Notes under the pieces: model-generated
Seen by the model: only the letters and a program-made list of their open reading frames with translations
Databases searched by the model: none
What the model was told of the DNA's origin: nothing
Shown here: piece by piece, positions 4,700 through 32,466 of the stretch
How positions within the stretch are numbered: position 1 is the first letter of the stretch
Layout of the letters: the number at the start of each line of letters is the position of its first letter
From: Escherichia coli
GTDB taxonomy: Bacteria > Pseudomonadota > Gammaproteobacteria > Enterobacterales > Enterobacteriaceae
NCBI RefSeq assembly: GCF_048403405.1
Contig: NZ_CP183129.1
Length of the DNA stretch: 64,000 nt
Strand: one strand, 5' to 3'
Position numbers and translations under genes: made by a program

Positions 4700-4859
4700 G
4701 TCACGATACCTTGGTTAAAAAACAAACAGCAATTATGTGCCGAATATTCGCAGTGTAACTTTTTCCACATGCGTTGTTCAATTCTCTGATTTATATTGCT
4801 TTTTAGGCTTCCTGTAATCGAGTTGCGCAACACTGCAACGGGTTTTCCAAATCTGGTCA

Positions 4860-5260
4860 CTGAAAATAAACAGGATCTTACACCATGTTATCCACAGAAA
4901 GCTGGGATAACTGTGAAAAACCTCCACTACTGTTTCCATTTACAGCCTTGACGTGCGACGAAACTCCAGTTTTTAGTGGTTCAGTGCTTAACTTAGTGGC
5001 ACATTCTGTGGATAAATACGGCATTGGTTGATCTTTAGCCAACCCGTAAATGAGAGGTGTGACCTGGGTCACGAATTACTCTTTTTTATTACTCAAATTA
5101 CATGTAATGCATTGACTGATAATGAATATTTTAAAATGTCTATATCGGGCTTATTCAGAATGCTCCGGGTTTTCCCGTAGTAATTCCGTAGTTCTTCACA
5201 ACTCTATCCACAGAAAAGGTGAATAAAAACGGCTATCCACCCCTTCCTCTGTTTATAACT
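4860..5260. promoter_or_regulatory. DARS2: DnaA-box cluster in the mutH-rppH intergenic region, consistent with DARS2 (DnaA-reactivating sequence 2)
   Basis: Seen: TTATCCACA at about 4888-4896 (+); an 8/9 box on the opposite strand at about 4910-4918; a perfect box on the opposite strand at about 5007-5015 (tgtggataa); cTATCCACA at about 5204-5212. From memory, DARS2 maps to the mutH-ygdP(rppH) intergenic region in K-12. Confidence 0.5.
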
Positions 5261-5383
5261 CTGCACATAACTGTGAGTTATTCAATTGTTATTAGTGTGT
5301 AATGCCCTGCAGAGAGTGGTTTACCGTCTTCCTGGAGTATGAAACAATCATTCGTATATAAAGCTTTATTTTGAGGTAGTCCG

Positions 5384-5914
5384 GTGATTGATGACGATGG
5401 CTACCGCCCAAACGTAGGTATCGTGATTTGTAATCGCCAGGGGCAGGTAATGTGGGCCCGGCGATTTGGTCAGCACTCCTGGCAATTTCCGCAAGGCGGA
5501 ATCAACCCCGGAGAATCCGCAGAGCAGGCGATGTACCGTGAATTGTTTGAAGAAGTGGGATTAAGCCGTAAAGACGTTCGAATCCTTGCTTCAACGCGTA
5601 ACTGGTTGCGCTACAAATTACCGAAACGTTTGGTGCGTTGGGACACGAAGCCGGTTTGTATCGGCCAAAAACAAAAATGGTTTCTCTTGCAGCTGGTGAG
5701 CGGCGATGCAGAAATCAATATGCAAACCAGCAGTACACCAGAGTTTGACGGCTGGCGATGGGTAAGTTACTGGTATCCGGTCAGACAGGTGGTGTCATTT
5801 AAACGTGATGTCTACCGTAGGGTAATGAAAGAGTTCGCGAGTGTGGTGATGTCACTGCAGGAAAATACACCAAAACCACAAAACGCATCTGCTTATCGAC
5901 GTAAAAGAGGTTAA
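5384..5914 (+). CDS. rppH: RNA pyrophosphohydrolase (Nudix)
   Basis: 176-aa ORF with a Nudix box ([22 protein letters not shown]); followed closely by ptsP. Confidence 0.9.
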
Positions 5915-5926
5915 GTCACGCCAATT

Positions 5927-8173: not shown

Positions 8174-8323
8174 CGCGGATCATATACATATCTTTTAACG
8201 GTATCCGGCAACCAGCCTGGTCCCCTTGTGCTATTATTCGCACCTTTGGAGCGCCTGAAACCTGCGGCGCGCATTTCAATCGCTGTTCTCTTTCAGCGAA
8301 ATAACAAGAACTTGTGGTGACAG

Positions 8324-9199
8324 ATGACCAGTAGCTATCTGCATTTTCCGGAGTTTGATCCGGTCATTTTCTCAATAGGACCCGTAGCGCTTCACTGGTA
8401 CGGCCTGATGTATCTGGTGGGTTTCATTTTTGCAATGTGGCTGGCAACACGTCGGGCGAATCGTCCGGGCAGCGGCTGGACCAAAAATGAAGTTGAAAAC
8501 TTACTCTATGCGGGCTTCCTCGGCGTCTTCCTCGGGGGACGTATTGGTTATGTTCTGTTCTACAATTTCCCGCAGTTTATGGCCGATCCGCTGTATCTGT
8601 TCCGTGTCTGGGACGGCGGCATGTCTTTCCACGGCGGCCTGATTGGCGTTATCGTGGTGATGATTATCTTTGCCCGCCGTACTAAACGTTCCTTCTTCCA
8701 GGTCTCTGATTTTATCGCCCCACTCATTCCGTTTGGTCTTGGTGCCGGGCGTCTGGGCAACTTTATTAACGGTGAATTGTGGGGCCGCGTTGACCCGAAC
8801 TTCCCGTTTGCCATGCTGTTCCCTGGCTCCCGTACAGAAGATATTTTGCTGCTGCAAACCAACCCGCAGTGGCAATCCATTTTCGACACTTACGGTGTGC
8901 TGCCGCGCCACCCATCACAGCTTTACGAGCTGCTGCTGGAAGGTGTGGTGCTGTTTATTATCCTCAACCTGTATATTCGTAAACCGCGCCCAATGGGAGC
9001 AGTCTCAGGCTTGTTCCTGATTGGTTACGGCGCGTTTCGCATCATTGTTGAGTTTTTCCGCCAGCCCGACGCGCAGTTTACCGGTGCCTGGGTGCAGTAC
9101 ATCAGCATGGGGCAAATTCTTTCCATCCCGATGATTGTCGCGGGTGTGATCATGATGGTCTGGGCATATCGTCGCAGCCCACAGCAACACGTTTCCTGA
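8324..9199 (+). CDS. lgt: prolipoprotein diacylglyceryl transferase
   Basis: 291-aa membrane ORF; immediately upstream of thyA (6-bp gap). Confidence 0.9.
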
Positions 9200-9205
9200 G
9201 GAACC

Positions 9206-10000
9206 ATGAAACAGTATTTAGAACTGATGCAAAAAGTGCTCGACGAAGGCACACAGAAAAACGACCGTACCGGAACCGGAACGCTTTCCATTTTTGGTCA
9301 TCAGATGCGTTTTAACCTGCAGGATGGATTCCCGCTGGTGACAACTAAACGTTGCCACCTGCGTTCCATCATCCATGAACTGCTGTGGTTTCTGCAGGGC
9401 GACACTAACATTGCTTATCTACACGAAAACAATGTCACCATCTGGGACGAATGGGCCGATGAAAACGGCGACCTCGGGCCAGTGTATGGTAAACAGTGGC
9501 GCGCCTGGCCAACGCCAGATGGTCGTCATATTGACCAGATCACTACGGTACTGAACCAGCTGAAAAACGACCCGGATTCGCGCCGCATTATTGTTTCAGC
9601 GTGGAACGTAGGCGAACTGGATAAAATGGCGCTGGCACCGTGCCATGCATTCTTCCAGTTCTATGTGGCAGACGGCAAACTCTCTTGCCAGCTTTATCAG
9701 CGCTCCTGTGACGTCTTCCTCGGCCTGCCGTTCAACATTGCCAGCTACGCGTTACTGGTGCATATGATGGCGCAGCAGTGCGATCTGGAAGTGGGTGATT
9801 TTGTCTGGACCGGTGGCGATACGCACCTGTACAGCAACCATATGGATCAAACTCATCTGCAATTAAGCCGCGAACCGCGTCCGCTGCCGAAGTTGATTAT
9901 CAAACGTAAACCCGAATCCATCTTCGACTACCGTTTCGAAGACTTTGAGATTGAAGGCTACGATCCGCATCCGGGCATTAAAGCGCCGGTGGCTATCTAA
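9206..10000 (+). CDS. thyA: thymidylate synthase
   Basis: 264-aa ORF with the active-site region ([13 protein letters not shown]) and conserved C-terminus. Confidence 0.95.
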
Positions 10001-10021
10001 TTACGAAACATCCTGCCAGAG

Positions 10022-10049
10022 CCGACGCCAGTGTGCGTCGGTTTTTTTT
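10022..10049 (+). terminator. intrinsic terminator after thyA (ccgacgc-loop-gcgtcgg followed by a T run)
   Basis: Hairpin plus T8 read directly from the sequence, about 20 nt after the thyA stop. Confidence 0.6.
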
Positions 10050-10184
10050 ACCCTCCGTTAAATTCTTCGAGACACCTTCCCGAAATTTTGCAACGTCCTG
10101 CAACGGCGTAAATAGTCCGGAAGATGCGCCGAAGAAATAGAAACTGGCCCTCGTCTTTTTTTCTCCTCGCTCCATACTGCCGGC

Positions 10185-10655
10185 ATGAAAACACAACGTG
10201 GTTATACGCTGATTGAAACGCTGGTCGCGATGCTGATTCTGGTCATGCTAAGCGCAAGTGGACTCTATGGCTGGCAATACTGGCAGCAGTCGCAACGGCT
10301 TTGGCAAACCGCCAGCCAGGCGCGGGACTATTTGCTCTATTTACGTGAAGATGCCAACTGGCATAACCGCGACCACAGTATCAGTCTTATCAGGGAGGGG
10401 ACGTTATGGTGCCTTGTGAGTTCCGCTGCTGGGGCCAATACCTGTCATGGCAGTTCACCATTGGTCTTTGTGCCACGCTGGCCCGAAGTCGAAATGAGCG
10501 ATCTGACACCTTCGCTTGCTTTCTTTGGCCTGCGCAATACCGCATGGGCCGGGCATATTCGCTTCAAAAACTCAACGGGCGAGTGGTGGCTGGTGGTTTC
10601 GCCGTGGGGAAGACTCCGGCTTTGTCAGCAAGGAGAAACAGAAGGATGCCTATAA
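10185..10655 (+). CDS. ppdA: prepilin-type N-terminal cleavage/methylation-domain protein (pseudopilin-like)
   Basis: 156-aa ORF with N-terminal [11 protein letters not shown] pilin-type signal. Confidence 0.8.
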
Positions 10656-11933: not shown

Positions 11934-14900
11934 ATGTTAAGGGTCTACCATTCCAATCGTCTGGACGTGCTGGAAGCGTTGATGGAGTTTATCGTCGAAC
12001 GCGAACGGCTGGACGATCCTTTCGAACCAGAGATGATTCTGGTGCAAAGTACCGGTATGGCGCAGTGGCTGCAAATGACCCTGTCGCAAAAGTTTGGTAT
12101 TGCGGCAAACATTGATTTTCCGCTGCCAGCGAGCTTTATCTGGGATATGTTCGTCCGGGTGTTACCGGAAATCCCCAAAGAGAGCGCCTTTAACAAACAG
12201 AGCATGAGCTGGAAACTGATGACTCTGCTGCCGCAACTGTTGGAGCGCGAAGACTTTACCCTGTTGCGGCATTATCTGACTGACGATAGCGACAAGCGAA
12301 AACTGTTCCAGCTTTCTTCAAAAGCGGCGGACCTGTTTGACCAGTATCTGGTCTATCGTCCGGACTGGCTGGCACAGTGGGAAACAGGACATTTGGTTGA
12401 AGGGCTGGGAGAAGCACAGGCCTGGCAAGCGCCGTTGTGGAAGGCGTTGGTGGAATATACCGACGAACTCGGGCAACCGCGCTGGCACCGCGCCAATCTT
12501 TATCAGCGCTTTATCGAAACGCTGGAGTCCGCGACGACCTGCCCGCCGGGGTTACCTTCGCGCGTATTTATATGCGGTATTTCCGCGTTACCGCCTGTTT
12601 ATCTCCAGGCGCTACAGGCGCTGGGTAAACATATTGAAATCCATCTCCTGTTTACCAACCCCTGCCGTTATTACTGGGGCGACATTAAAGATCCTGCTTA
12701 TCTGGCGAAACTGCTGACTCGCCAGCGCCGACACAGTTTTGAAGATCGCGAATTACCGCTATTTCGCGACAGCGAAAATGCCGGACAGCTCTTTAACAGC
12801 GATGGTGAACAGGATGTCGGCAACCCGCTGCTGGCCTCATGGGGCAAGCTTGGGCGCGACTACATTTATCTCCTTTCTGATCTGGAGGGCAGCCAGGAGC
12901 TGGACGCCTTTGTCGATGTCACGCCAGATAACCTGCTGCATAACATTCAGTCTGACATTCTGGAACTTGAAAACTGCGCTGTTGCGGGTGTGAATATCGA
13001 AGAGTTTTCCCGTAGCGATAACAAACGCCTGCTTGATCCACTGGATAACAGTATCACCTTCCACGTTTGCCATAGCCCGCAGCGCGAAGTTGAAGTTTTA
13101 CACGATCGCCTGCTGGCTATGCTGGAGGAAGACCCGACATTGACTCCGCGCGACATCATCGTGATGGTGGCTGATATCGACAGCTACAGTCCGTTTATTC
13201 AGGCAGTGTTTGGTAGCGCACCTGCGGATCGTTACCTACCTTACGCCATTTCCGACCGTCGGGCGCGGCAGTCACATCCGGTACTGGAAGCGTTTATCAG
13301 CCTGTTATCACTGCCTGACAGTCGCTTTGTGTCAGAGGATGTGCTGGCGTTGCTGGATGTGCCGGTGCTGGCGGCGCGGTTTGACATCACCGAAGAAGGG
13401 CTGCGTTATTTACGCCAGTGGGTCAACGAATCCGGCATTCGTTGGGGGATAGATGACGACAACGTTCGCGAGCTGGAACTCCCCGCCACCGGACAACACA
13501 CCTGGCGATTTGGCCTGACGCGCATGTTGCTGGGCTACGCGATGGAGAGCGCGCAGGGCGAGTGGCAATCGGTTCTACCTTATGATGAATCGAGCGGCTT
13601 AATTGCAGAACTGGTGGGGCATCTGGCTTCACTGCTAATGCAGCTAAACATCTGGCGTCGCGGGCTGGCGCAGGAGCGTCCGCTGGAAGAGTGGTTGCCG
13701 GTTTGTCGCGATATGCTCAACGCCTTCTTCCTGCCGGATGCGGAAACCGAAGCGGCGATGACGCTGATCGAACAACAATGGCAGGCGATTATCGCCGAAG
13801 GTTTAGGTGCGCAGTATGGCGACGCGGTGCCGCTGTCACTATTGCGTGATGAACTGGCACAGCGCCTGGATCAGGAACGTATCAGCCAGCGTTTTCTCGC
13901 CGGACCGGTTAACATTTGTACTCTGATGCCAATGCGTTCCATCCCATTCAAAGTGGTTTGCCTGCTGGGAATGAACGACGGCGTTTATCCACGCCAGCTT
14001 GCGCCATTGGGCTTTGACCTGATGAGCCAGAAACCGAAGCGTGGCGACCGTAGCCGTCGCGATGACGACCGCTATCTGTTCCTGGAAGCGTTAATTTCCG
14101 CGCAGCAAAAACTCTATATCAGCTATATCGGGCGTTCTATTCAGGATAACAGTGAACGTTTCCCGTCGGTACTGGTGCAGGAACTGATCGACTACATCGG
14201 GCAAAGCCATTATCTACCGGGCGATGAAGCGCTCAACTGTGATGAAAGCGAGGCAAGGGTAAAAGCGCATCTTACTTGCCTCCATACCCGGATGCCGTTT
14301 GATCCGCAAAACTACCAGCCAGGCGAACGACAAAGCTATGCTCGTGAATGGCTACCTGCGGCCAGCCAGGCTGGTAAAGCACATTCTGAATTTGTTCAGC
14401 CGCTGCCGTTTACCTTACCGGAAACCGTGCCGCTGGAAACGCTACAACGATTCTGGGCGCATCCGGTGCGGGCGTTTTTCCAGATGCGCTTGCAGGTGAA
14501 CTTCCGTACCGAAGACAGCGAAATCCCCGACACCGAGCCATTTATTCTGGAAGGGCTTAGTCGTTATCAAATCAATCAGCAGTTATTGAATGCACTGGTT
14601 GAGCAGGATGATGCCGAACGCTTGTTCCGCCGCTTCCGGGCGGCAGGGGATTTACCGTATGGCGCTTTTGGTGAAATTTTCTGGGAAACACAGTGCCAGG
14701 AGATGCAGCAGCTTGCCGACAGAGTCATTGCCTGTCGCCAGCCGGGGCAAAGTATGGAAATTGATCTCGCCTGCAACGGTGTGCAGATAACTGGCTGGTT
14801 GCCGCAGGTGCAGCCGGATGGCCTGTTGCGCTGGCGTCCCTCTTTATTAAGTGTGGCGCAGGGAATGCAACTTTGGCTGGAACAACTTGTCTACTGTGCC

Positions 14901-15302
14901 AGCGGTGGTAATGGTGAAAGTCGCCTTTTTCTACGCAAAGACGGCGAGTGGCGTTTTCCGCCGCTTGCAGCCGAACAGGCTTTGCATTACCTCTCACAAC
15001 TGATTGAGGGGTATCGTGAAGGAATGTCCGCGCCATTGCTGGTGTTACCTGAAAGTGGCGGCGCGTGGCTAAAAACCTGTTATGACGCGCAAAACGATGC
15101 CATGCTGGATGACGATTCCACGTTACAAAAAGCCCGTACGAAATTCCTTCAGGCTTACGAAGGCAACATGATGGTGCGTGGCGAAGGTGATGATATCTGG
15201 TATCAACGGCTCTGGCGGCAATTAACACCAGAGACAATGGAGGCCATCGTTGAACAGTCGCAACGTTTCCTGTTACCGCTGTTTCGCTTTAATCAGTCAT
15301 GA
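11934..15302 (+). CDS. recC: exodeoxyribonuclease V gamma subunit
   Basis: 1122-aa ORF; expected length and position. Confidence 0.95.
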   Translation: MLRVYHSNRLDVLEALMEFIVERERLDDPFEPEMILVQSTGMAQWLQMTLSQKFGIAANIDFPLPASFIWDMFVRVLPEIPKESAFNKQSMSWKLMTLLPQLLEREDFTLLRHYLTDDSDKRKLFQLSSKAADLFDQYLVYRPDWLAQWETGHLVEGLGEAQAWQAPLWKALVEYTDELGQPRWHRANLYQRFIETLESATTCPPGLPSRVFICGISALPPVYLQALQALGKHIEIHLLFTNPCRYYWGDIKDPAYLAKLLTRQRRHSFEDRELPLFRDSENAGQLFNSDGEQDVGNPLLASWGKLGRDYIYLLSDLEGSQELDAFVDVTPDNLLHNIQSDILELENCAVAGVNIEEFSRSDNKRLLDPLDNSITFHVCHSPQREVEVLHDRLLAMLEEDPTLTPRDIIVMVADIDSYSPFIQAVFGSAPADRYLPYAISDRRARQSHPVLEAFISLLSLPDSRFVSEDVLALLDVPVLAARFDITEEGLRYLRQWVNESGIRWGIDDDNVRELELPATGQHTWRFGLTRMLLGYAMESAQGEWQSVLPYDESSGLIAELVGHLASLLMQLNIWRRGLAQERPLEEWLPVCRDMLNAFFLPDAETEAAMTLIEQQWQAIIAEGLGAQYGDAVPLSLLRDELAQRLDQERISQRFLAGPVNICTLMPMRSIPFKVVCLLGMNDGVYPRQLAPLGFDLMSQKPKRGDRSRRDDDRYLFLEALISAQQKLYISYIGRSIQDNSERFPSVLVQELIDYIGQSHYLPGDEALNCDESEARVKAHLTCLHTRMPFDPQNYQPGERQSYAREWLPAASQAGKAHSEFVQPLPFTLPETVPLETLQRFWAHPVRAFFQMRLQVNFRTEDSEIPDTEPFILEGLSRYQINQQLLNALVEQDDAERLFRRFRAAGDLPYGAFGEIFWETQCQEMQQLADRVIACRQPGQSMEIDLACNGVQITGWLPQVQPDGLLRWRPSLLSVAQGMQLWLEQLVYCASGGNGESRLFLRKDGEWRFPPLAAEQALHYLSQLIEGYREGMSAPLLVLPESGGAWLKTCYDAQNDAMLDDDSTLQKARTKFLQAYEGNMMVRGEGDDIWYQRLWRQLTPETMEAIVEQSQRFLLPLFRFNQS

Positions 15303-25350: not shown

Positions 25351-26604
25351 ATGTCAGGATCCAACACTGCAATCAGCCGTCGTCGTTTACTGCAAGGCGC
25401 GGGTGCCATGTGGCTATTGAGCGTAAGTCAGGTCAGTCTGGCTGCGGTCAGCCAGGTCGTGGCGGTGCGCGTCTGGCCTGCGTCCAGCTACACCCGCGTG
25501 ACGGTAGAATCAAATCGTCAGCTGAAATATAAGCAGTTCGCGTTGAGTAACCCGGAACGCGTGGTGGTGGATATCGAAGATGTAAACCTGAACTCGGTAC
25601 TCAAGGGGATGGCGGCACAAATTCGTGCAGACGACCCGTTCATCAAGTCGGCGCGCGTCGGGCAATTTGACCCGCAGACCGTACGCATGGTTTTTGAATT
25701 AAAGCAAAACGTAAAACCGCAGCTGTTTGCCCTTGCGCCGGTCGCTGGGTTTAAAGAGCGTCTGGTGATGGACCTCTATCCGGCCAATGCACAGGATATG
25801 CAGGACCCGCTGCTGGCGCTGCTGGAGGATTACAACAAAGGCGACCTCGAAAAGCAGGTGCCGCCAGCACAAAGTGGTCCACAACCGGGTAAAGCAGGGC
25901 GCGATCGTCCGATTGTCATTATGCTTGACCCTGGCCACGGTGGCGAAGACTCCGGTGCGGTGGGGAAATACAAAACGCGCGAAAAAGACGTGGTATTGCA
26001 AATAGCTCGCCGTCTGCGCTCTCTGATCGAGAAAGAGGGCAATATGAAGGTGTACATGACGCGCAATGAAGACATCTTCATTCCGTTGCAAGTGCGCGTA
26101 GCAAAAGCCCAGAAACAGCGTGCTGACCTGTTTGTCTCTATCCATGCCGACGCCTTTACCAGCCGTCAGCCGAGCGGTTCCTCTGTGTTTGCGCTCTCAA
26201 CCAAAGGTGCAACCAGTACTGCGGCAAAATATCTGGCACAAACCCAGAACGCCTCGGACTTGATTGGTGGCGTGAGCAAAAGCGGTGACCGCTATGTCGA
26301 CCACACCATGTTCGATATGGTGCAGTCGCTGACCATTGCCGACAGCCTGAAGTTTGGTAAAGCGGTGCTGAATAAGCTCGGTAAAATCAACAAGCTGCAT
26401 AAAAATCAGGTTGAACAGGCCGGGTTTGCCGTACTAAAGGCACCAGATATTCCCTCCATTCTGGTCGAAACGGCGTTTATCAGTAACGTTGAGGAAGAGC
26501 GTAAACTGAAAACGGCGACCTTCCAGCAGGAAGTTGCGGAGTCTATTCTTGCGGGGATTAAAGCGTATTTTGCCGATGGGGCGACGCTGGCGAGAAGGGG
26601 ATGA
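25351..26604 (+). CDS. amiC: N-acetylmuramoyl-L-alanine amidase with Tat signal
   Basis: ATG at 25351 gives [19 protein letters not shown] (twin-arginine signal); ORF-track start 25261 is an extension; amidase_3 domain at the C-terminus. Confidence 0.9.
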
Positions 26605-26777
26605 TGTTTTTATTTATTCAATGAATTTATATTTCGTTGAATAGATAACATTTTCATGAATATTAGATGCTGGTTTTGTGACTGATGTCGAATATTTGAA
26701 TGTCGGCTTGAAAAATAAGCCGACCATCTCTTTAATTAAACACAATTCCGTGTAATGTATACACATTAGTTAATCAT

Positions 26778-26850
26778 CTTGTAACTGTTAAATCAGGCAA
26801 GGCAATGTTTGAAGTAATTATTACTTCTGACGTGCCTTGCCTTTTTTTTT
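26778..26850 (+). promoter_or_regulatory. RAT (ribonucleic antiterminator) element overlapping an intrinsic terminator in the leader of the antiterminator gene
   Basis: ttgtaactgttaaatcaggcaagg resembles the sac/bgl/lic RAT consensus; its 3' half (aggcaaggca, 26795-26804) pairs perfectly with tgccttgcct (26833-26842), which is followed by T8. Confidence 0.7.
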
Positions 26851-26861
26851 GGAGTCATGGA

Positions 26862-27686
26862 ATGATCATCGAAAAAGTCATGAACAATAATTGTGTACAG
26901 GCATCGATGAATGGACAGGAGGTTATCATTTCTGGACCTGGCGTCGGTTACAACAAAAAATATGGAATGTCGGTCCCTGAGCATCCGGCTAACCGGATTT
27001 TTTATGTCAGAAATGAACAAAAAAACAAACTCTATAAATTGATTGAACATGTAGATATTGAGTATGTGTTTGTTGCCGAAAAAATAGTGCAATATGCGGA
27101 GAAAAATCTCGAAAAAAATCTCAATCCATCGCTACTATTGATTCTTGCGGATCACATTTCGAATGCAATATCCCGAGTCGCTTCAGGTATACAAATTAAT
27201 AATGTTTTCCTTGATGAAATCAAAGCGTTGTACAAAGCAGAATATGCAATAAGCCGGGATGCATTAACCATCATCAATGAGCAATTTAGCTTTCAACTTC
27301 CGGATGATGAGATTGGTTTTATTGCATTGCATATTTTAAATAACTATGAAAATTCATCTGATTATGAATCGGTACGGATTATTGAATTATCTCAAAAAAT
27401 CACGGAGATTATCGAGGGTATTTATAACCGAAAGGTGGACAGAAGTTCATTTAACTATTCAAGATTTATGATGCACCTTAAGTATTTTTCTAATCGAGTT
27501 TTATGTAATGAAAAGATAAAACAGAAAGATATTGGTGACATCTATGAGCAGTTTCTTGAGAAAGACATCCTGTTACAGCGCGCAATTCATGAAATTGAAA
27601 GGTATCTGTATGCCACTTTTAAATATGAATTAATTTTAGAAGAAAAACTATATCTCTCAATTCGTACCAAAGTATTAATGGACTAA
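26862..27686 (+). CDS. BglG/LicT/SacY-family transcription antiterminator (CAT RNA-binding domain + two PRDs)
   Basis: ATG at 26862 preceded by ggag; N-terminus MIIEKVMNNNCV... aligns to LicT/BglG (MKIAKILNNNVV); the ORF-track start 26805 lies inside the leader terminator. Confidence 0.85.
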   Translation: MIIEKVMNNNCVQASMNGQEVIISGPGVGYNKKYGMSVPEHPANRIFYVRNEQKNKLYKLIEHVDIEYVFVAEKIVQYAEKNLEKNLNPSLLLILADHISNAISRVASGIQINNVFLDEIKALYKAEYAISRDALTIINEQFSFQLPDDEIGFIALHILNNYENSSDYESVRIIELSQKITEIIEGIYNRKVDRSSFNYSRFMMHLKYFSNRVLCNEKIKQKDIGDIYEQFLEKDILLQRAIHEIERYLYATFKYELILEEKLYLSIRTKVLMD

Positions 27687-27717
27687 TTATATATAACATT
27701 TATATGAGATAACCCAC

Positions 27718-29298
27718 ATGAAACAAAAGAAAGCCTGGAGTTTTTTTCAGAGCCTGGGGAAGGCATTTATGTATCCCATTGCTCTGCTAAGTGTATGTGG
27801 CATGATGCTAGGGCTAGGAAGTGGTTTAGCCAGTGATGATATGGCAAAGTTAATTCCATTTCTGGCTATTCCAATAATTAAAACCATACTTGATTTCATT
27901 GTTAGCCTTGGTTTGTTTGCCTTTGTTAATTTACCTGTATTGTTTGCGATAGCAATTCCCTTAGGATTATTAAAAGAGAAAGAGGATAAAGCCTATGGCG
28001 CTTTTTCTGGCTTAATTGGTTTTATGGCGATGCATCTGGGAACGAACTTTTATCTTAAACAGCACGACTTATTGGTCGCTGCTGACCAAATGTCGACACA
28101 TGGGCAAACCATCATTCTGGGGATCCAGTCCTACAATACCAGCGTGTTAGGGGGAATTGTTGCTGGGTTATTAGTCGCCAGCATGTATAAAAAGATCGTT
28201 AATTTACGCATTCCAGAATCATTAGGTTTTTATAGCGGCCCACGTCTGGTGCCTATCATTACACTGATTGTGATGAGTGGATTTGGTCTGATCATTCCTT
28301 TTATCTGGCCGCCGTTTTTCAATCTCTTCATGCTCATTGGCCACTGGATATCAACTTCCGGTCCTGTTGGTTATTTCTTCTATGCAGTTGCCGAACGTGT
28401 GACGATTCCTTTTGGCTTAAACCATCTGGTGACGTCAGTGTTCCGCTTTACGCCAATCGGCGGTTCGGCTGTGATTGGCGGCGAAGAGTATTACGGCACC
28501 CTGAACATGTTTATGGCGTACGTCAAAGAGAATGCGGTCATTCCGCTGGATTTGGCGGGGAAAATGGAGCAGGGCAAACTGATGATTCAGTACGGTCTGG
28601 CTGGTGCTGCACTGGCCATGTATCGCACTGCTCATGCTCAAAACAGAAAGGCTATCAAAGCATTGCTTATTTCCGGTGTGCTTACGGTTATTATTGGTGG
28701 CGTCAGCGAACCGATTGAATTTCTGTTCTTATTTGTCAGTCCGCTGCTGTTTGTCTTCCATGCCTTTATGAATGGATTCGCCAACATGGTCTTGCCATAT
28801 ATGGGCGTGAAGATGGGATTTACTGGCGATCTGATTCAATTTATTAGCTTTGGCGTATTGCGTGGCACAAGAACAGGTTGGCCGATCGCGGTGTGTGTCG
28901 AAGTGGCCTATTTCTTCATTTATTACTTTGTGTTCCGTTGGACCATTCTCAAATTTAACCTGATGACCGTAGGACGTGAAGAGTCCAGTCCTGTCACGCT
29001 GAACGCTCACGAAGAAACTGCAATAGCTAATATCCCAGCTTATGATAAATCAGAGTTGCAGGCAGCGGAGCAAATGGTTAAGGCTCTGGGTGGAAAAGAA
29101 AATATTAAATCACTGGATAATTGTGTCACTCGTTTGCGTTTAACTATCGCAGATATGGGATTGATAGATGAGGCTGCAATTAAAAGTGCCGGAGGGATTG
29201 CGGTTGTGAAACTTGATCAAAATACCTTACAAGTCATTATCGGCACTAAAGTCATCGCCCTGCGTCGGGATATGGATAACTACATGGGGATACGCTGA
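27718..29298 (+). CDS. PTS permease EIICB, glucose/maltose (MalX/PtsG-like) family; no EIIA domain
   Basis: 526-aa polytopic ORF; C-terminal EIIB domain with phospho-cysteine motif NCVTRLRL. Confidence 0.85.
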   Translation: MKQKKAWSFFQSLGKAFMYPIALLSVCGMMLGLGSGLASDDMAKLIPFLAIPIIKTILDFIVSLGLFAFVNLPVLFAIAIPLGLLKEKEDKAYGAFSGLIGFMAMHLGTNFYLKQHDLLVAADQMSTHGQTIILGIQSYNTSVLGGIVAGLLVASMYKKIVNLRIPESLGFYSGPRLVPIITLIVMSGFGLIIPFIWPPFFNLFMLIGHWISTSGPVGYFFYAVAERVTIPFGLNHLVTSVFRFTPIGGSAVIGGEEYYGTLNMFMAYVKENAVIPLDLAGKMEQGKLMIQYGLAGAALAMYRTAHAQNRKAIKALLISGVLTVIIGGVSEPIEFLFLFVSPLLFVFHAFMNGFANMVLPYMGVKMGFTGDLIQFISFGVLRGTRTGWPIAVCVEVAYFFIYYFVFRWTILKFNLMTVGREESSPVTLNAHEETAIANIPAYDKSELQAAEQMVKALGGKENIKSLDNCVTRLRLTIADMGLIDEAAIKSAGGIAVVKLDQNTLQVIIGTKVIALRRDMDNYMGIR

Positions 29299-30482
29299 TG
29301 AATGTTTTTAATACCCCTATCTCCCGTAAAGGAACATATTGCACTCAATGGGACTTTTGTGAGGACAGATTTGGTGTAAAAGATGTATTACCATTTTCTA
29401 TTTCAGATATGGATCTTCCGATACCGGAAGCTATCATCAGGGCATTAAAAAAACGCCTGGAACACCCGATTTTAGGGTACAGCCGTTGGCAGCATGATGA
29501 TTATCTGAATGCGATAGTCAATTGGTATCATCAACAATATAAAACTGAAATAAAACCAGAATGGATCACCTATAGCCCAAGTGTGATGTATTCAATTGCT
29601 AAGGCAATAGAGTTATTAACATTGAATGGAGATAACATTCTCATTTTTACGCCTGTTTATAACGCATTTTTTGATGTAATTAAACAAAGTGGTCGAAATA
29701 TGCTAACAACCTCTTTGAATAAAGAAAATGAGAGAGGCTACGCTATCAACTGGCAAGATTTTGAGCTAAAAATTAAAAGCGCGAAGATGGTGTTATTGTG
29801 TAATCCTCATAACCCGACAGGAACCGTCTGGTCGGAAGAAGATCTCTTCAAAATCGCTGCAAGCTGCGCAAAACAAAAAATCTGGCTATGTTCAGATGAA
29901 ATTCACAGTGATTTTGTTTTTAACCATGGTTTCACGTCCGCGTTAAAAATAAAAAATGACAAAGTAGTGGTGTTAAATTCGATTTCGAAAACATTTAATG
30001 TTCCTGCACTAACAGGATCATATATGATATCCGCTGACCAGGATTTTAATGATAAGTTTAGAACGATATCAAGATATCGCGATTTTGTAAACTCACCATC
30101 TATATTGAATGTGATTGCTACCATTGTTGCTTATAACGAATGTGAAGAATGGTTAAAGTCGTTAAAGGATCATATTGCCTCTAACATTCAATTTACCCAG
30201 CAGTATTTGAATGAAAATATTCCAGAATTGATCGTGAGGTCCGCTGAGGGTTGCTATTTTTCGTGGATAGATTGCTCGGCCATTGGCTATCCCTTTGATA
30301 AATTTTACCGACGATTAATTGATGAAGGGAAAGTGGGTATTATGGCGGGGTATGTTTATGGTACGGAAGGTGAGGGCTATCTGCGTCTGAATCTGGCCTG
30401 CGGTCGAGAAAAATTATATATGGGGCTTGTGCGCCTTGCGAGTGTAATTAAAAATATTAATCAGGAAAAAGAAAATGAATAA
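29298..30482 (+). CDS. MalY/PatB-like PLP-dependent C-S lyase (aminotransferase class I/II fold)
   Basis: 394 aa; N-terminus GTYCTQWDF...DVLPFSISDMD closely parallels MalY; PLP-lysine motif SISKTFN; start overlaps the PTS stop. Confidence 0.8.
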   Translation: MNVFNTPISRKGTYCTQWDFCEDRFGVKDVLPFSISDMDLPIPEAIIRALKKRLEHPILGYSRWQHDDYLNAIVNWYHQQYKTEIKPEWITYSPSVMYSIAKAIELLTLNGDNILIFTPVYNAFFDVIKQSGRNMLTTSLNKENERGYAINWQDFELKIKSAKMVLLCNPHNPTGTVWSEEDLFKIAASCAKQKIWLCSDEIHSDFVFNHGFTSALKIKNDKVVVLNSISKTFNVPALTGSYMISADQDFNDKFRTISRYRDFVNSPSILNVIATIVAYNECEEWLKSLKDHIASNIQFTQQYLNENIPELIVRSAEGCYFSWIDCSAIGYPFDKFYRRLIDEGKVGIMAGYVYGTEGEGYLRLNLACGREKLYMGLVRLASVIKNINQEKENE

Positions 30483-31071
30483 CTCGGAACTTATACATCT
30501 TATTAAACATTTTATGCGTAACGAACATAAGGCCGTTGAAGAGGTTATTGATTCCCCACTTTCTGAAGTCGCTAATTTAATTAAAGTATTACAATCTTGT
30601 CAGGGTAAAGTTGTTTTTATTGGTGTTGGTAAGTCCGGTATTATTGCCAGAAAACTCGCAGCAACATTTGCCAGTACCGGAACTCCCTCGTTTTTTGTTC
30701 ACGGTACGGAAGCGGTACACGGCGACCTTGGAATGGTGGCGAAAGACGATGTTGTTATTCTTATTTCAAACAGTGGTGAGACGGCGGAAATCCTGGCGAC
30801 ACTGCCTAGTCTGAAAAGAATGGGTAATTATTTGATCTCTTTTACCCGCAGTCATCACTCATCGCTTGCGATAAGTTGTGATTTATCTGTTGAAATCCCC
30901 GTCAAAAGTGAGGCGGATAATTTAGGTTTAGCACCGTCATGCTCGTCTACTGTTGTTCTGGTTGTTGGTGATGCGGTGGCGCTTGCACTCTCCGAATTGA
31001 AAAAATTTACTCGTGCCGATTTCGGCTTATATCATCCAGGAGGTGCACTCGGCATTAAAGCAAATTCATAA
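30475..31071 (+). CDS. SIS-domain-only sugar-phosphate isomerase-like protein (resembles the N-terminal half of KdsD/GutQ arabinose-5-phosphate isomerases, no CBS domains)
   Basis: 198 aa; motifs GVGKSGIIARKLAATFASTGTPSFFVHGTEAVHGDLGM, SNSGET and HPGGALG; start overlaps the MalY-like stop by 8 nt. Confidence 0.8.
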   Translation: MNNSELIHLIKHFMRNEHKAVEEVIDSPLSEVANLIKVLQSCQGKVVFIGVGKSGIIARKLAATFASTGTPSFFVHGTEAVHGDLGMVAKDDVVILISNSGETAEILATLPSLKRMGNYLISFTRSHHSSLAISCDLSVEIPVKSEADNLGLAPSCSSTVVLVVGDAVALALSELKKFTRADFGLYHPGGALGIKANS

Positions 31072-31142
31072 TTTCAAAATATAAATACAGTAACCGGTCA
31101 CGCCATCTTTTGGGGTGGCGTTCATTGAAGTGAGTGTCAGCT

Positions 31143-32090
31143 ATGAAAAATGTTCTGGTCACCGTCCCCAGCTTTTCAGCACGCTGTGTTTCCGCCAGCA
31201 AGTTGCTAAGAGAGAATAATTTTAATCTTATTATTAAGAATAATGTGGAGCATCTGCTTAAATCAGAATCCACTGCATTACGAGAATCTATTTGCGCGGT
31301 CATCGCCGGAAAAGATTGTTATCAGGCGGATACGCTATCATTGCTGCCTGGTGTGAAAATAATATCGAGATTCGGGACGGGGATAGACAATATTGATCTT
31401 CGTGCGGCACAGCAATCCGGTATTGTAGTCAAAAATGCGGTTGGGATTAATTCAAATGCGGTTGCGGAATTTATCATTGGACTTATCTTTGCGAGCATGA
31501 GAAATATTCCTGGCAGCTATCATGCGATGCAAAATGGCTACTGGGTTGAGTCGCATGGCTGTGAATTACAAGGGAAACGGATTGGCCTGGTTGGCTACGG
31601 TAATATAGGTAAAACCCTGGCGAAAAGGTTGTCTGGTTTTGATGTTGAGCTTTTAGCTTTTGACAAACAACCCGATTTTCAGGCCGCTGGCAAAGATGGA
31701 GTTCAGTTTGTATCAATTGAAGATATCTTTATGCAGTCGCATGTCATCATTGTTCTTTTACCTTTTTCTCCTGAGCTGGAGAACTTCATTAGTCATAAAT
31801 ATTTGTCAATGATGCGCAATGGTGCTCTGATCATCAATGCCGCAAGGGGAAAGTTGCTGGATGAGGGCGCTTTACTTCAGGTGATTGAAGAACGAAATGT
31901 GTTTGCGGCGCTGGATGTGTTTAGCTCTGAACCGTTGGCGCAATTTAGCCCACTGCTACATGCCAAAAATATCATTACAACGCCGCATATTGCGGCCGCC
32001 ACCGTTGAGTCATACCAGCAAACCGGGATACACGTTGCCCAGTCAATAATTGATTACTTCGCAGGAAGGGAGATAAAAAACGTGTTGTGA
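31143..32090 (+). CDS. D-isomer-specific 2-hydroxyacid dehydrogenase, NAD-binding
   Basis: ATG at 31143 preceded by gaagtgag (ORF-track 31134 is a GTG upstream); Rossmann motif GLVGYGNIGKTLAKRL. Confidence 0.8.
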   Translation: MKNVLVTVPSFSARCVSASKLLRENNFNLIIKNNVEHLLKSESTALRESICAVIAGKDCYQADTLSLLPGVKIISRFGTGIDNIDLRAAQQSGIVVKNAVGINSNAVAEFIIGLIFASMRNIPGSYHAMQNGYWVESHGCELQGKRIGLVGYGNIGKTLAKRLSGFDVELLAFDKQPDFQAAGKDGVQFVSIEDIFMQSHVIIVLLPFSPELENFISHKYLSMMRNGALIINAARGKLLDEGALLQVIEERNVFAALDVFSSEPLAQFSPLLHAKNIITTPHIAAATVESYQQTGIHVAQSIIDYFAGREIKNVL

Positions 32091-32116
32091 GTTCAGCGAA
32101 CGAAGATTTTAAATAC

Positions 32117-32149
32117 AAAAAAACCGCAATTTGTGGAACACATTGCGGT
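32117..32149 (-). terminator. intrinsic terminator downstream of the tRNA-fMet operon (minus strand)
   Basis: On the minus strand, stem ccgcaat/attgcgg followed by T7; lies just 3' of the last tRNA copy. Confidence 0.55.
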
Positions 32150-32168
32150 TTATCAGCATTCTAAGTAT

Positions 32169-32245
<77 letters not shown>

Positions 32246-32279
32246 TCACCGTACTGCTTTTACTTCATCAAATTTTGAT

Positions 32280-32356
<77 letters not shown>

Positions 32357-32389
32357 TCACCGTACTGCTTTACTTCATCAAATTTTAAT

Positions 32390-32466
<77 letters not shown>

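What the first reader, a model, noticed from the sequence alone, without database searches (positions are those of the whole stretch)
29298..32090. Enzyme set without any phospho-glycoside hydrolase: not a conventional beta- or alpha-glucoside PTS operon
Antiterminator-controlled PTS operons usually carry a 6-phospho-glycosidase (BglB, GlvA or similar). This one instead encodes a PLP C-S lyase/aminotransferase-fold enzyme, a sugar-phosphate isomerase-like SIS protein and a D-2-hydroxyacid dehydrogenase. That combination suggests the imported phospho-sugar is a monosaccharide derivative (possibly an amino-, thio- or acid-sugar) that is isomerised, oxidised and then transaminated or beta-eliminated. 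This is a hypothesis only.
Basis: inference. Interest (0 to 1): 0.55.

Follow-up and report, generated by a model that had tools for sequence, protein, structure and literature searches.

The report
Known E. coli sugar-uptake operon, substrate unknown
This is the previously described c3405-c3410 sugar-import operon of a horizontally acquired E. coli island; it really has no sugar-splitting hydrolase, one enzyme is already characterised, and the imported compound is still unknown.

Summary
Window 26862-32090 carries five co-oriented genes: a BglG/LicT-type antiterminator, a MalX-like PTS EIICB, a MalY/PatB PLP beta-lyase, a CBS-less KpsF/GutQ-type SIS isomerase and an NAD-dependent D-2-hydroxyacid dehydrogenase. 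There is no glycosidase. A RAT-plus-terminator leader lies upstream.

It is not new. It is the c3405-c3410 operon of PAI-CFT073-metV, a low-GC island between amiC and the metZWV tRNA genes, present in 1683 of 5426 complete E. coli genomes. The SIS protein is 97% identical to PDB 5UQI and, from memory of Mosberg 2011, was shown to be an arabinose-5-phosphate isomerase. A 2026 paper still assigns no function to the cluster.

The proposed isomerise-oxidise-transaminate pathway is only partly supported. The conserved core is antiterminator-EIICB-MalY-SIS (Enterobacter, Clostridioides difficile, another Firmicute). The dehydrogenase is absent there and broken in Atlantibacter.

New here:
- The MalY clade is almost always part of a PTS operon (26 of 27 close homologues against 6 of 53 distant ones).
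- These operons showed no glycosidase.
- They often include aminopeptidases or a sugar-phosphate isomerase.

This suggests, as inference only, that the lyase replaces the glycosidase by cleaving a sugar-amino-acid conjugate.

The parts
26776..26805 (+). RAT-like antiterminator binding site in the operon leader
   Evidence: TTGTAACTGTTAAATCAGGCAA at 26779-26800 matches the RAT core. It is conserved upstream of all orthologous clusters and occurs four times in C. difficile. It overlaps the 5' arm of the terminator.
26795..26852 (+). Intrinsic terminator (long hairpin plus a run of nine T) controlled by antitermination
   Evidence: MFE -29.6 kcal/mol, z -5.61, 0 of 200 shuffles fold as well. 19 consensus pairs, 5 with both-side compensatory changes across five Enterobacterales leaders.
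26862..27686 (+). BglG/LicT/GlcT-family PRD transcription antiterminator (c3409-like)
   Evidence: NCBIfam LicT 229.9 bits and GlcT 182.6 bits, both below the equivalog cut-offs. Orthologues carry Pfam CAT_RBD and PRD. PRD histidines H98, H157 and H205 are invariant; the fourth is Arg here.
27718..29298 (+). PTS EIICB permease of the glucose family, MalX-like (c3408-like), with no EIIA domain
   Evidence: TIGR02004 PTS-IIBC-malX 540 bits against a cut-off of 632. 41% identical to K-12 MalX (PMC12928451). 69% identical to the C. difficile orthologue. The EIIB motif NCVTRLR and the EIIC motif GVSEPIE are visible in the translation.
29298..30482 (+). MalY/PatB-clade PLP-dependent beta C-S lyase (c3407-like)
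   Evidence: TIGR04350 363.7 bits, above the cut-off of 340. Best PDB hit is E. coli MalY 1D2F at 293 bits. The PLP lysine K231 and other catalytic positions are invariant in 14 homologues. It carries all 16 signature residues of the PTS-linked clade. Its start overlaps the EIICB stop by 1 nt.
30475..31071 (+). CBS-less SIS-domain arabinose-5-phosphate isomerase (c3406-like)
   Evidence: 192 of 198 residues identical to PDB 5UQI/5VHU. KdsD catalytic residues are conserved in the alignment to 2XHZ. It matches only the SIS half of the KdsD and GutQ models. It overlaps the MalY gene by 8 nt. In-frame MalY-SIS fusions exist in some strains.
31143..32090 (+). NAD-dependent D-2-hydroxyacid dehydrogenase, PGDH-like but not SerA (c3405-like); a lineage-specific accessory gene
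   Evidence: Catalytic R235, E263 and H282, the GxGxxG motif and Asp174 are invariant in the family. The PGDH 'VRS' substrate-phosphate motif is replaced by 'IAG'. It has a narrow family. It is absent or broken in several orthologous clusters. The alternative GTG start is at 31134.
32122..32150 (.). Hairpin AACCGCAAT...ATTGCGGTT between the dehydrogenase stop and the tRNA genes. It is the terminator of the minus-strand metZWV tRNA operon and the probable end of the island transcript.
   Evidence: Read directly from the sequence. It has an A-run on the plus strand, which is a T-run on the minus strand.
32169..32466 (-). Three tRNA-Met (CAT) genes, metZWV, marking the island boundary
   Evidence: ARAGORN, Rfam tRNA at 61.4 bits each, RefSeq annotation.

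Best explanation
This is the c3405-c3410 'PAI-metV' carbohydrate operon of extraintestinal-type E. coli. It is a self-contained, horizontally acquired five-gene unit.

Shown by sequence:
- A BglG/LicT-type antiterminator gene is preceded by a RAT that overlaps a strong intrinsic terminator. Read-through of the whole operon therefore depends on the antiterminator binding the RAT.
- By analogy with BglG, LicT and GlcT, the antiterminator should be active only while the cognate EIICB is transporting substrate and drains phosphate from PRD1.

Inferred from family membership:
- The MalX-type EIICB has no EIIA of its own and so borrows Crr. It imports and phosphorylates a glucose-family sugar derivative.

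Shown experimentally for the 97%-identical c3406 (literature, from memory):
- The SIS protein interconverts arabinose-5-P and ribulose-5-P.

Inferred from gene context in Firmicutes:
- This isomerase is catabolic. It feeds an aldose-phosphate into the pentose-phosphate pathway rather than making Kdo.

Inferred from comparative genomics:
- The MalY-clade PLP beta-lyase is the enzyme that takes the place of the phospho-glycosidase. It most likely removes a beta-substituted alanine moiety (Ser- or Cys-type) from the phosphorylated substrate. The products would be pyruvate, ammonium and a sugar phosphate.
- The dehydrogenase is a lineage-specific add-on, possibly acting on the 2-oxo acid or on a sugar acid. 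It is not a core step.

The substrate itself remains unidentified.
For: Identity of the locus:
- 100% DNA matches to E. coli chromosomes between amiC and the tRNA-Met genes.
- GC 0.39-0.42 against about 0.52 in the flanks.
- The literature describes c3405-c3410 in PAI-CFT073-metV as a maltose/glucose-like PTS set (PMC2831201).
- The same five genes are region 19 of strain BEN2908 (PMC12928451).
- The Mosberg 2011 title is cited.

Regulation.

Enzyme families and active sites.

All five genes are under purifying selection between E. coli and Citrobacter: dN 0.10-0.22 with saturated dS.

The four-gene core is conserved in Enterobacter, C. difficile and a Bacilli-type contig. C. difficile adds its own EIIA-Glc gene.

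MalY-PTS linkage:
- 26 of 27 homologues with at least 38% identity lie in a PTS operon, against 6 of 53 below that. All six are at 36-38% identity. Fisher p = 3e-14.
- Three PTS families are involved (PMC5845896).
- The clade has 16 signature residues.
- No glycosidase was found in any putative operon examined.
- Aminopeptidases lie between the PTS genes and MalY in L019, L028, L041 and L043. In L026 an M24 aminopeptidase lies directly upstream of MalY, with no PTS gene seen before the contig end.
- A sugar-phosphate isomerase follows MalY in three independent arrangements: SIS, Vibrionaceae PMI and Terrisporobacter PMI-like.
- MalY-SIS fusion proteins exist.

Catabolic contexts for short arabinose-5-P isomerase homologues in Kdo-free Firmicutes.
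Against: - No substrate is known, and no tool here can identify one.
- K-12 MalX is reported to carry glucose and maltose, and K-12 MalY works as a MalT anti-activator independently of catalysis (literature, from memory). The lyase could therefore be regulatory or moonlighting.
- C. difficile MalY is simply a cysteine desulfhydrase in vitro (PMC6143707 and PMC5767170).
- A glucose-family EIICB yielding a pentose-5-phosphate is unusual, so the fit between the permease and the arabinose-5-P isomerase is unexplained.
- The E. coli island has no peptidase.
- Glycosidase absence was judged from operon-adjacent ORFs scanned with NCBIfam, not from a full CAZy search.
- From memory of Mosberg 2011, deletion of c3406 alone had no virulence phenotype.
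Confidence: 0.55

Rival explanations
1. This is a plain glucose- or maltose-type PTS (a MalX paralogue). The MalY-like protein acts mainly as a regulator or as a general cysteine/cystathionine lyase. The isomerase supplies or senses arabinose-5-P, as GutQ does at the end of the glucitol PTS operon. No unusual substrate chemistry is involved.
For: - EIICB is 41% identical to MalX and the lyase 36% identical to MalY (PMC12928451).
- The antiterminator scores on both the LicT and GlcT models.
- GlcT-ptsG is a known antiterminated PTS unit without a glycosidase (established knowledge).
- C. difficile MalY has cysteine desulfhydrase activity.
- GutQ is a precedent for an arabinose-5-P isomerase in a PTS operon (from memory, Meredith and Woodard 2005).
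Against: - The catalytic residues of the lyase are invariant across phyla.
- The lyase gene is translationally coupled to the permease gene.
- The clade is tied to PTS permeases of three different families and to aminopeptidases. A MalT-type regulatory role cannot explain this, because the L. sakei genome that carries a PTS-linked MalY has no MalT homologue (PMC5845896).
- E. coli already has PtsG and MalX, so a redundant glucose permease would not obviously give the urinary-tract fitness effect reported for c3405-c3410 (from memory, Lloyd 2009).
Confidence: 0.2
2. A monosaccharide derivative (amino, thio or acid sugar) is imported, isomerised by the SIS protein, oxidised by the dehydrogenase, and then transaminated or beta-eliminated by the PLP enzyme in one linear pathway.
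For: - All three enzymes look catalytically intact and are conserved between E. coli and Citrobacter.
- A 43% homologue of the dehydrogenase sits in a sugar/sugar-acid cluster in Oceanobacillus.
- Salmonella dga (D-glucosaminate PTS plus a PLP ammonia-lyase) is a precedent for PTS-plus-PLP chemistry (from memory).
Against: - The dehydrogenase is missing from the Enterobacter, C. difficile and L093 clusters and is a pseudogene in Atlantibacter, while the other four genes stay together.
- The PLP enzyme is a PatB/MalY lyase by curated threshold.
- The SIS protein is a specific arabinose-5-P/ribulose-5-P isomerase (literature, from memory). Its product is already a central metabolite and needs no oxidation or transamination.
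Confidence: 0.1
3. This is a D-arabinose or D-arabinofuranoside utilisation unit. The permease delivers arabinose-5-P directly, and the isomerase converts it to ribulose-5-P. The lyase and dehydrogenase are peripheral.
For: - A short isomerase homologue in Mammaliicoccus lentus lies in a LacI / isomerase / ribokinase-family kinase / FucP-like permease cluster with an RbsD-like mutarotase. This reads as a D-arabinose route.
- Arabinose-5-P isomerase activity of c3406 (literature, from memory).
Against: - Glucose-family EIICB proteins are known for hexopyranosides (established knowledge).
- The scheme leaves the universally linked lyase unexplained.
- Most MalX-MalY modules have no such isomerase at all.
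Confidence: 0.08
4. The isomerase serves Kdo, LPS or capsule biosynthesis, as KdsD and KpsF do. The island is a surface-polysaccharide accessory rather than a catabolic operon.
For: - Sequence similarity to KdsD, KpsF and GutQ.
- A review cites c3406 in the LPS context (PMC4470864).
Against: - The same four-gene module occurs in C. difficile and other Firmicutes that make no Kdo.
- Close short homologues are abundant in lactobacilli, staphylococci and bacilli, in sugar-catabolic clusters.
- The operon is under sugar-PTS antitermination control.
Confidence: 0.04

Closest known systems
E. coli CFT073 c3405-c3410 operon of PAI-CFT073-metV (Lloyd 2007/2009; Mosberg 2011; Bryant 2009, PMC2831201)
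   Same: It has the same five genes in the same order at the same amiC / tRNA-Met site. The SIS protein is 97% identical to the deposited 198-aa structure 5UQI. This window is an allele of that operon.
   Different: The window holds only the 5.5-kb metabolic module directly between amiC and the tRNA genes. The rest of the 32-kb CFT073 island was not seen next to it.
E. coli K-12 malI-malX-malY
   Same: A MalX-type EIICB is immediately followed by a MalY-clade lyase with no glycosidase. The lyase shares all 16 clade signature residues.
   Different: K-12 uses a divergent LacI-type repressor (MalI) instead of an antiterminator with a RAT. It has no SIS isomerase and no dehydrogenase. Identity is only 36-41%.
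Clostridioides difficile CD3027-CD3031
   Same: It has the antiterminator, EIICB (69% identical), MalY (50%) and a short SIS protein (52%) in the same order. It also lies in a strain-variable region (PMC10880999).
   Different: It has its own EIIA-Glc gene and no dehydrogenase. The RAT-terminator lies between the antiterminator and the permease genes and is present in four tandem copies.
bgl/asc/glv-type glucoside PTS operons (bgl is antiterminator-controlled)
   Same: A PRD antiterminator, a RAT overlapping a terminator, and a glucose-superfamily permease.
   Different: There is no GH1 or GH4 phospho-glycosidase. A PLP lyase occupies the position after the permease.
GutQ in the glucitol (srl/gut) PTS operon
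   Same: An arabinose-5-P isomerase is encoded at the distal end of a PTS operon whose sugar does not obviously need it (from memory).
   Different: GutQ keeps the tandem CBS domains and belongs to a different PTS family. This protein is SIS-only.
Salmonella dga (D-glucosaminate) and MurP/MurQ systems (from memory)
   Same: In both, the PTS product is processed by an eliminating enzyme rather than a glycosidase. DgaE is a PLP ammonia-lyase and MurQ is a SIS etherase.
   Different: They use different enzyme families and known substrates. No homology beyond the SIS fold and PLP dependence was tested here.

Membership tests
BglG/SacY-type antiterminator-controlled PTS operon | CAT RNA-binding domain plus two PRD domains in the regulator | tested here: met
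   LicT model aligned over 269 of 273 positions, 229.9 bits. Pfam CAT_RBD and PRD are on record for the orthologues.
BglG/SacY-type antiterminator-controlled PTS operon | RAT sequence partly overlapping an intrinsic terminator in the leader | tested here: met
   RAT core at 26779-26800, terminator at 26795-26852, z -5.6, compensatory changes in orthologues.
BglG/SacY-type antiterminator-controlled PTS operon | Four conserved regulatory histidines, two per PRD | tested here: inconclusive
   H98, H157 and H205 are invariant. The fourth is His in Enterobacter and C. difficile but Arg in E. coli, Citrobacter and Atlantibacter.
Beta- or alpha-glucoside PTS operon (bgl, asc, glv) | A 6-phospho-glycosidase (GH1 or GH4) in the operon | tested here: not met
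   None of the five proteins matches a glycosidase family. The operon is bounded by amiC and the tRNA genes.
MalX/MalY module | MalX-subfamily EIICB | tested here: inconclusive
   The best model is TIGR02004 at 540 bits, below its cut-off of 632. 41% identical to MalX.
MalX/MalY module | MalY/PatB-family PLP lyase with the catalytic lysine, encoded directly after the permease | tested here: met
   TIGR04350 above cut-off. K231 invariant. Clade signature present. 1-nt overlap with the EIICB gene.
MalX/MalY module | MalI (LacI-type) repressor and interaction of MalY with MalT | tested here: not met
   There is no LacI-type gene in the island; an antiterminator is present instead. MalT binding cannot be tested with these tools.
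KdsD/GutQ/KpsF arabinose-5-phosphate isomerases | SIS domain with the catalytic Lys, His, Glu, Glu and His | tested here: met
   GVGKSG, HGDLG, SGETAE, SEADNLGLAP and HPGG are all present in the alignment to KdsD 2XHZ and to 5UQI.
KdsD/GutQ/KpsF arabinose-5-phosphate isomerases | Tandem C-terminal CBS domains | tested here: not met
   The protein is 198 aa and matches only positions 37-201 of the 328-position KdsD model.
KdsD/GutQ/KpsF arabinose-5-phosphate isomerases | Measured arabinose-5-P/ribulose-5-P isomerase activity | not testable with these tools
   Reported for c3406 by Mosberg et al. 2011. The paper is not held; its title was seen and its content is recalled from memory.
D-3-phosphoglycerate dehydrogenase (SerA) | Family score above threshold, and the Arg-Ser substrate-phosphate motif | tested here: not met
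   TIGR01327 214 bits against a cut-off of 454. 'VRS' is replaced by an invariant 'A..G'. There is no ACT domain.
D-isomer-specific 2-hydroxyacid dehydrogenase superfamily | Rossmann GxGxxG motif, NAD-selecting Asp, and the catalytic Arg-Glu-His | tested here: met
   G148/G151/G153, D174, R235, E263 and H282 are invariant in 10 family members.

The most novel reading that the evidence does not exclude
MalY-clade PLP lyases that are fixed next to PTS permeases may be the functional replacement for phospho-glycosidases. This would cover the glucose-type permeases here and in K-12 malXY, the fructose-type Frv/Fry-like operons with M42 and M24 aminopeptidases, and a lactose-type operon in L. sakei.

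Under this reading, these operons import sugar-amino-acid or sugar-peptide conjugates, for example O- or S-glycosyl Ser/Cys derived from host or microbial glycopeptides. The steps would be:
1. Peptidases trim the peptide where they are present.
2. The lyase releases the phosphorylated sugar by beta-elimination, giving pyruvate and ammonium.
3. An arabinose-5-P isomerase or a mannose-6-P isomerase passes the sugar phosphate to central metabolism.

The E. coli island would then be a catabolic route for such a conjugate available in the urinary tract or gut. It would also give a physiological function to MalX/MalY, which has been unexplained since 1991.
Probability: 0.2. Interest if true: 0.8.

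Novelty: already known. Interest (0 to 1): 0.4.

Why it matters
From memory of Lloyd 2009 and Mosberg 2011, the operon contributes to urinary-tract fitness of uropathogenic E. coli. About a third of complete E. coli genomes carry it, yet its substrate is unknown.

It shares an unexplained design with K-12 malXY and with a strain-variable C. difficile operon: a PTS permease followed by a PLP beta-lyase, with no glycosidase.

Identifying the substrate would name a host- or diet-derived nutrient used by extraintestinal E. coli. It could also settle what MalX and MalY are for.

As a genome-scan finding, however, the locus is already described and partly characterised.

Tried and rejected
- Mosberg 2011 and Lloyd 2009 could not be read; they are not held. 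Their content is cited from memory only.
- Literature searches for a known MalX/MalY substrate, for thioglycoside or beta-elimination links, and for frvX/ypdE/ypdF function found nothing relevant.
- Rfam found only the three tRNAs and no known leader RNA family.
- dN/dS between E. coli and Citrobacter could not be computed because dS is saturated. Only the low dN is usable.
- The mannose-6-P isomerase hits 3-6 kb from malXY in Enterobacteriaceae were rejected as operon members. They are the ordinary manA neighbourhood, and the ORF after malY is adenosine deaminase. Only the Vibrionaceae and Terrisporobacter isomerases directly abut MalY.
- C69 dipeptidase near MalY recurs in only two related Lactobacillales, so it is weak evidence.
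- A Kdo/LPS role for the isomerase was considered and rejected, because the module occurs in Firmicutes.
- A SerA-like role for the dehydrogenase was rejected on score and motif.
The counts are a sample, not a census.

Full report
**Observation.**
- 29298-30482 encodes a 394-aa PatB/MalY-family PLP C-S lyase. It scores 363.7 bits on TIGR04350, above the curated cut-off of 340.
- 30475-31071 encodes a 198-aa single-SIS-domain protein. It matches only the isomerase half of KdsD, GutQ and KpsF.
- 31143-32090 (alternative GTG start at 31134) encodes a D-isomer 2-hydroxyacid dehydrogenase. Its best family, phosphoglycerate dehydrogenase, scores 214 bits against a cut-off of 454.

A PRD antiterminator (26862-27686) and a glucose-family EIICB (27718-29298) lie directly upstream on the same strand. 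The genes overlap or nearly abut: 1 nt between EIICB and the lyase, 8 nt between the lyase and SIS, and about 70 nt before the dehydrogenase. None of the five products matches a glycoside hydrolase.

**Where it is.**
The window is E. coli chromosome. The stretch 26600-32400 is 100% identical to many complete genomes, where RefSeq annotates recD, argA, amiC, the five genes, three tRNA-Met genes, mltA and tcdA.
- The five genes form a low-GC insert, 0.39-0.42 against about 0.52 in the flanks.
- The insert is present, at 80% or more of its length, in 1683 of 5426 complete E. coli genomes.
- The literature identifies it. Bryant et al. list c3405-c3410, inside PAI-CFT073-metV, as a 'PTS system, maltose/glucose specific' set kept in uropathogenic strains (PMC2831201).
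- A 2026 paper on strain BEN2908 lists the same five genes (region 19: 32% to SerA, 52% to KdsD, 36% to MalY, 41% to MalX, 30% to BglG) and assigns no function (PMC12928451).
- The SIS protein is identical at 192 of 198 positions to the crystallised 198-aa 'phosphosugar isomerase' 5UQI/5VHU.
- Mosberg et al. 2011 is cited but is not held. From memory, it showed that c3406 is a CBS-less arabinose-5-phosphate isomerase. It called the cluster an operon for an unknown carbohydrate. It reported that deleting c3405-c3410, but not c3406 alone, reduces urinary-tract fitness.

**Regulation.**
The leader contains TTGTAACTGTTAAATCAGGCAA (26779-26800), a good match to the RAT core. Its 3' half is the 5' arm of a long hairpin followed by nine T residues (26795-26852).
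- The hairpin folds at -29.6 kcal/mol, z = -5.6, and none of 200 shuffles folds as well.
- The same RAT-plus-terminator arrangement precedes the orthologous clusters of Citrobacter, Atlantibacter and two Enterobacter species. Five of the 19 consensus pairs are kept through changes on both sides.
- In C. difficile the element lies between the antiterminator and the permease genes and is repeated four times in tandem.
- Three of the four regulatory PRD histidines are invariant. The fourth is Arg in the E. coli, Citrobacter and Atlantibacter lineage.
- The island has no EIIA gene, whereas the C. difficile operon ends with an EIIA-Glc gene. The E. coli permease therefore presumably uses Crr.
- A hairpin at 32122-32150 is the terminator of the oppositely oriented tRNA operon and closes the unit.

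**The enzymes look active.**
- The lyase keeps the PLP lysine (K231) and the other positions that are invariant across 14 homologues from four phyla. Its best solved relative is E. coli MalY.
- The isomerase keeps the KdsD catalytic residues.
- The dehydrogenase keeps the GxGxxG motif, the NAD-selecting Asp174 and the Arg235/Glu263/His282 triad. The Arg-Ser 'VRS' motif that binds the phosphate of 3-phosphoglycerate in PGDHs is replaced by an invariant 'A..G', so it is not SerA.
- Between E. coli and Citrobacter all five genes have dN of 0.10-0.22 with saturated synonymous sites, which indicates purifying selection.

**Core and accessory genes.**
The following clusters were found.

| Organism or locus | Content | Site or note |
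|---|---|---|
| Citrobacter (L013) | All five genes | Next to tRNA-Asp |
| Metagenomic contig L012 | EIICB-lyase-SIS-dehydrogenase (contig starts inside the EIICB gene) | Dehydrogenase 48% identical |
| Atlantibacter hermannii | Five genes, dehydrogenase split into two ORFs | Same amiC/mltA site |
| Two Enterobacter species | Antiterminator-EIICB-lyase-SIS only | Next to fruBKA |
| C. difficile (CD3027-CD3031) | The same four genes plus EIIA | Strain-variable region |
| Bacilli-type contig (L093) | The same four genes | Contig ends after SIS |

The conserved module is therefore antiterminator-EIICB-MalY-SIS, and the dehydrogenase is a lineage-specific addition.

The dehydrogenase family is narrow. 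A 43% homologue in Oceanobacillus lies in a cluster with a TRAP transporter, a DHDPS-like protein, a ribokinase-like kinase, a LarA-like protein, FucI and an FGGY kinase.

Some E. coli and Shigella strains encode in-frame MalY-SIS fusion proteins of about 590 aa.

**The lyase is a PTS-linked clade.**
A scan of one genome per species with a MalY alignment returned 80 loci. The loci were classified by tblastn and NCBIfam.
- 26 of 27 homologues with at least 38% identity to the island lyase sit inside a PTS operon. Below 38% the figure is 6 of 53, and all six are at 36-38%. Below 36% it is 0 of 47. Fisher p = 3e-14.
- Nineteen follow a MalX-type EIICB. The regulators differ: MalI in gamma-proteobacteria, RpiR in Firmicutes, PRD or Mga-type in Brachyspira and Fusobacterium.
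- Seven follow fructose-family Frv/Fry-like components.
- Four of these carry M42 and/or M24 aminopeptidases between the permease and the lyase. Examples are FrvA-FrvB-M42-MalY-FrvR in Listeria newyorkensis and IIA-IIB-IIC-M24-M42-MalY in clostridia. A fifth locus, L026, has an M24 aminopeptidase directly upstream of MalY, with no PTS gene seen before the contig end.
- The published L. sakei MalY lies in a lactose-family PTS cluster with two aminopeptidases (PMC5845896).
- No glycosidase was seen in any putative operon examined.
- A sugar-phosphate aldose-ketose isomerase directly follows the lyase in three independent arrangements: the SIS isomerase here, type-I mannose-6-P isomerase in Vibrio and Aliivibrio, and a mannose-6-P-isomerase-like gene in Terrisporobacter.
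- The clade, which includes K-12 MalY, has 16 signature residues that are invariant or nearly so within it (36-39 of 39) and different in other PatB-like proteins. Examples are Q17 instead of Lys, R63, W64 and K372.

**The isomerase in Kdo-free bacteria.**
Short homologues at 52-60% identity are abundant in Firmicutes, in catabolic settings.
- In Mammaliicoccus lentus the order is LacI, isomerase, ribokinase-family kinase and FucP-like permease, with an RbsD-like gene nearby. This is consistent with D-arabinose going to arabinose-5-P and then to ribulose-5-P.
- In Lactiplantibacillus pentosus and Companilactobacillus the gene is next to an ascorbate-family PTS, a DHDPS/NanA-like aldolase and a KDPG-type aldolase.

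This favours a catabolic role over Kdo synthesis.

**Mechanism.**
- Shown: the gene content, the antitermination architecture, intact active sites, the identity with c3405-c3410, and the core-versus-accessory pattern.
- From the literature: arabinose-5-P isomerase activity of c3406, and cysteine desulfhydrase activity of C. difficile MalY (PMC6143707 and PMC5767170).
- Inferred: the permease phosphorylates a glucose-family sugar derivative. The lyase, not a hydrolase, processes it, probably by beta-elimination of a Ser- or Cys-type moiety. An aldose phosphate is then isomerised into central metabolism.
- Main rival: a redundant glucose/maltose permease with a moonlighting lyase and a GutQ-like isomerase.
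- The fit between a glucose-family permease and a pentose-phosphate isomerase remains unexplained.

**Verdict.**
It is an already described operon with one enzyme characterised and crystallised, and the absence of a known substrate has been noted in print.

The added value here is comparative. It defines the four-gene core, demotes the dehydrogenase, and shows that the MalY clade is tied to PTS permeases and often to aminopeptidases or isomerases. Together these turn the old MalX/MalY puzzle into a concrete, testable hypothesis.

Noticed in passing
L008:5996-6400 (Clostridioides difficile, between the antiterminator and EIICB genes): Four tandem copies of a unit of about 104 nt lie in series ahead of the permease gene. 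Each unit holds a RAT (GGATTGTAACTGGTTAAGCAGGCAAAACC) followed by a terminator-like hairpin and a T-run.
   Followed up: partly
L019, L028, L043 (about 4400-10160); L041:5971-11904; L026:945-4084: In clostridia and Listeria newyorkensis, Frv/Fry-like fructose-family PTS operons carry M24 (YpdF-like) and/or M42 (FrvX/YpdE-like) aminopeptidases immediately followed by a MalY-clade lyase. In Terrisporobacter (L026) an M24 peptidase, MalY and a mannose-6-P-isomerase-like gene are contiguous. This may bear on the unexplained frv, fry-ypd and sgc operons of E. coli K-12.
   Followed up: partly
proteins P0122, P0124-P0126, P0128, P0129 (E. coli and Shigella): These are in-frame fusions of the MalY-like lyase and the SIS isomerase, 550-592 aa. 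P0125 has the full lyase followed by residues 395-592, which are 96% identical to the complete SIS protein.
   Followed up: partly
window 27660-27686 (C-terminus of the antiterminator); alignment A4: The second PRD2 histidine (LSIHI in Enterobacter and C. difficile) is Arg (LSIRT or LSIRI) in the E. coli, Citrobacter and Atlantibacter antiterminators. This may alter HPr-dependent control.
   Followed up: no
L006:9673-10620 (Atlantibacter hermannii): At the same amiC/mltA site, the dehydrogenase gene is split into two ORFs (9673-10071 and 10261-10620). It is a pseudogene, while the other four genes are intact.
   Followed up: yes
L013:11848-11924 (Citrobacter sp. FP75): The same five-gene unit ends next to a tRNA-Asp gene rather than tRNA-Met. 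In Enterobacter the four-gene unit lies beside fruBKA. The module has therefore inserted at several sites, two of them adjacent to tRNA genes.
   Followed up: partly
L003:6354-10854 (Mammaliicoccus lentus); L002 and L004:4074-8606: Short CBS-less arabinose-5-P isomerase homologues occur in Kdo-free Firmicutes. One is in a LacI / isomerase / ribokinase-like kinase / FucP-like permease cluster with an RbsD-like gene, a likely D-arabinose route. Another is beside an ascorbate-family PTS with a DHDPS/NanA-like aldolase and a KDPG-type aldolase.
   Followed up: partly
window 26702-26724: A 9-bp GC-rich hairpin (GTCGGCTT...AAGCCGAC) lies about 100 nt after the amiC stop, inside the low-GC leader. 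It has no T-run. It could be the amiC terminator or an insertion scar.
   Followed up: no
L022:5010-6470 and 13499-14989; L057:10511-11911; L014:3723-5543: Dipeptidase or oligopeptidase genes (PepD-like, C69 family, PepF) lie close to RpiR-EIICB-MalY modules in Facklamia, Enterococcus and Brachyspira. Recurrence is low: C69 appears in only two related genera.
   Followed up: partly
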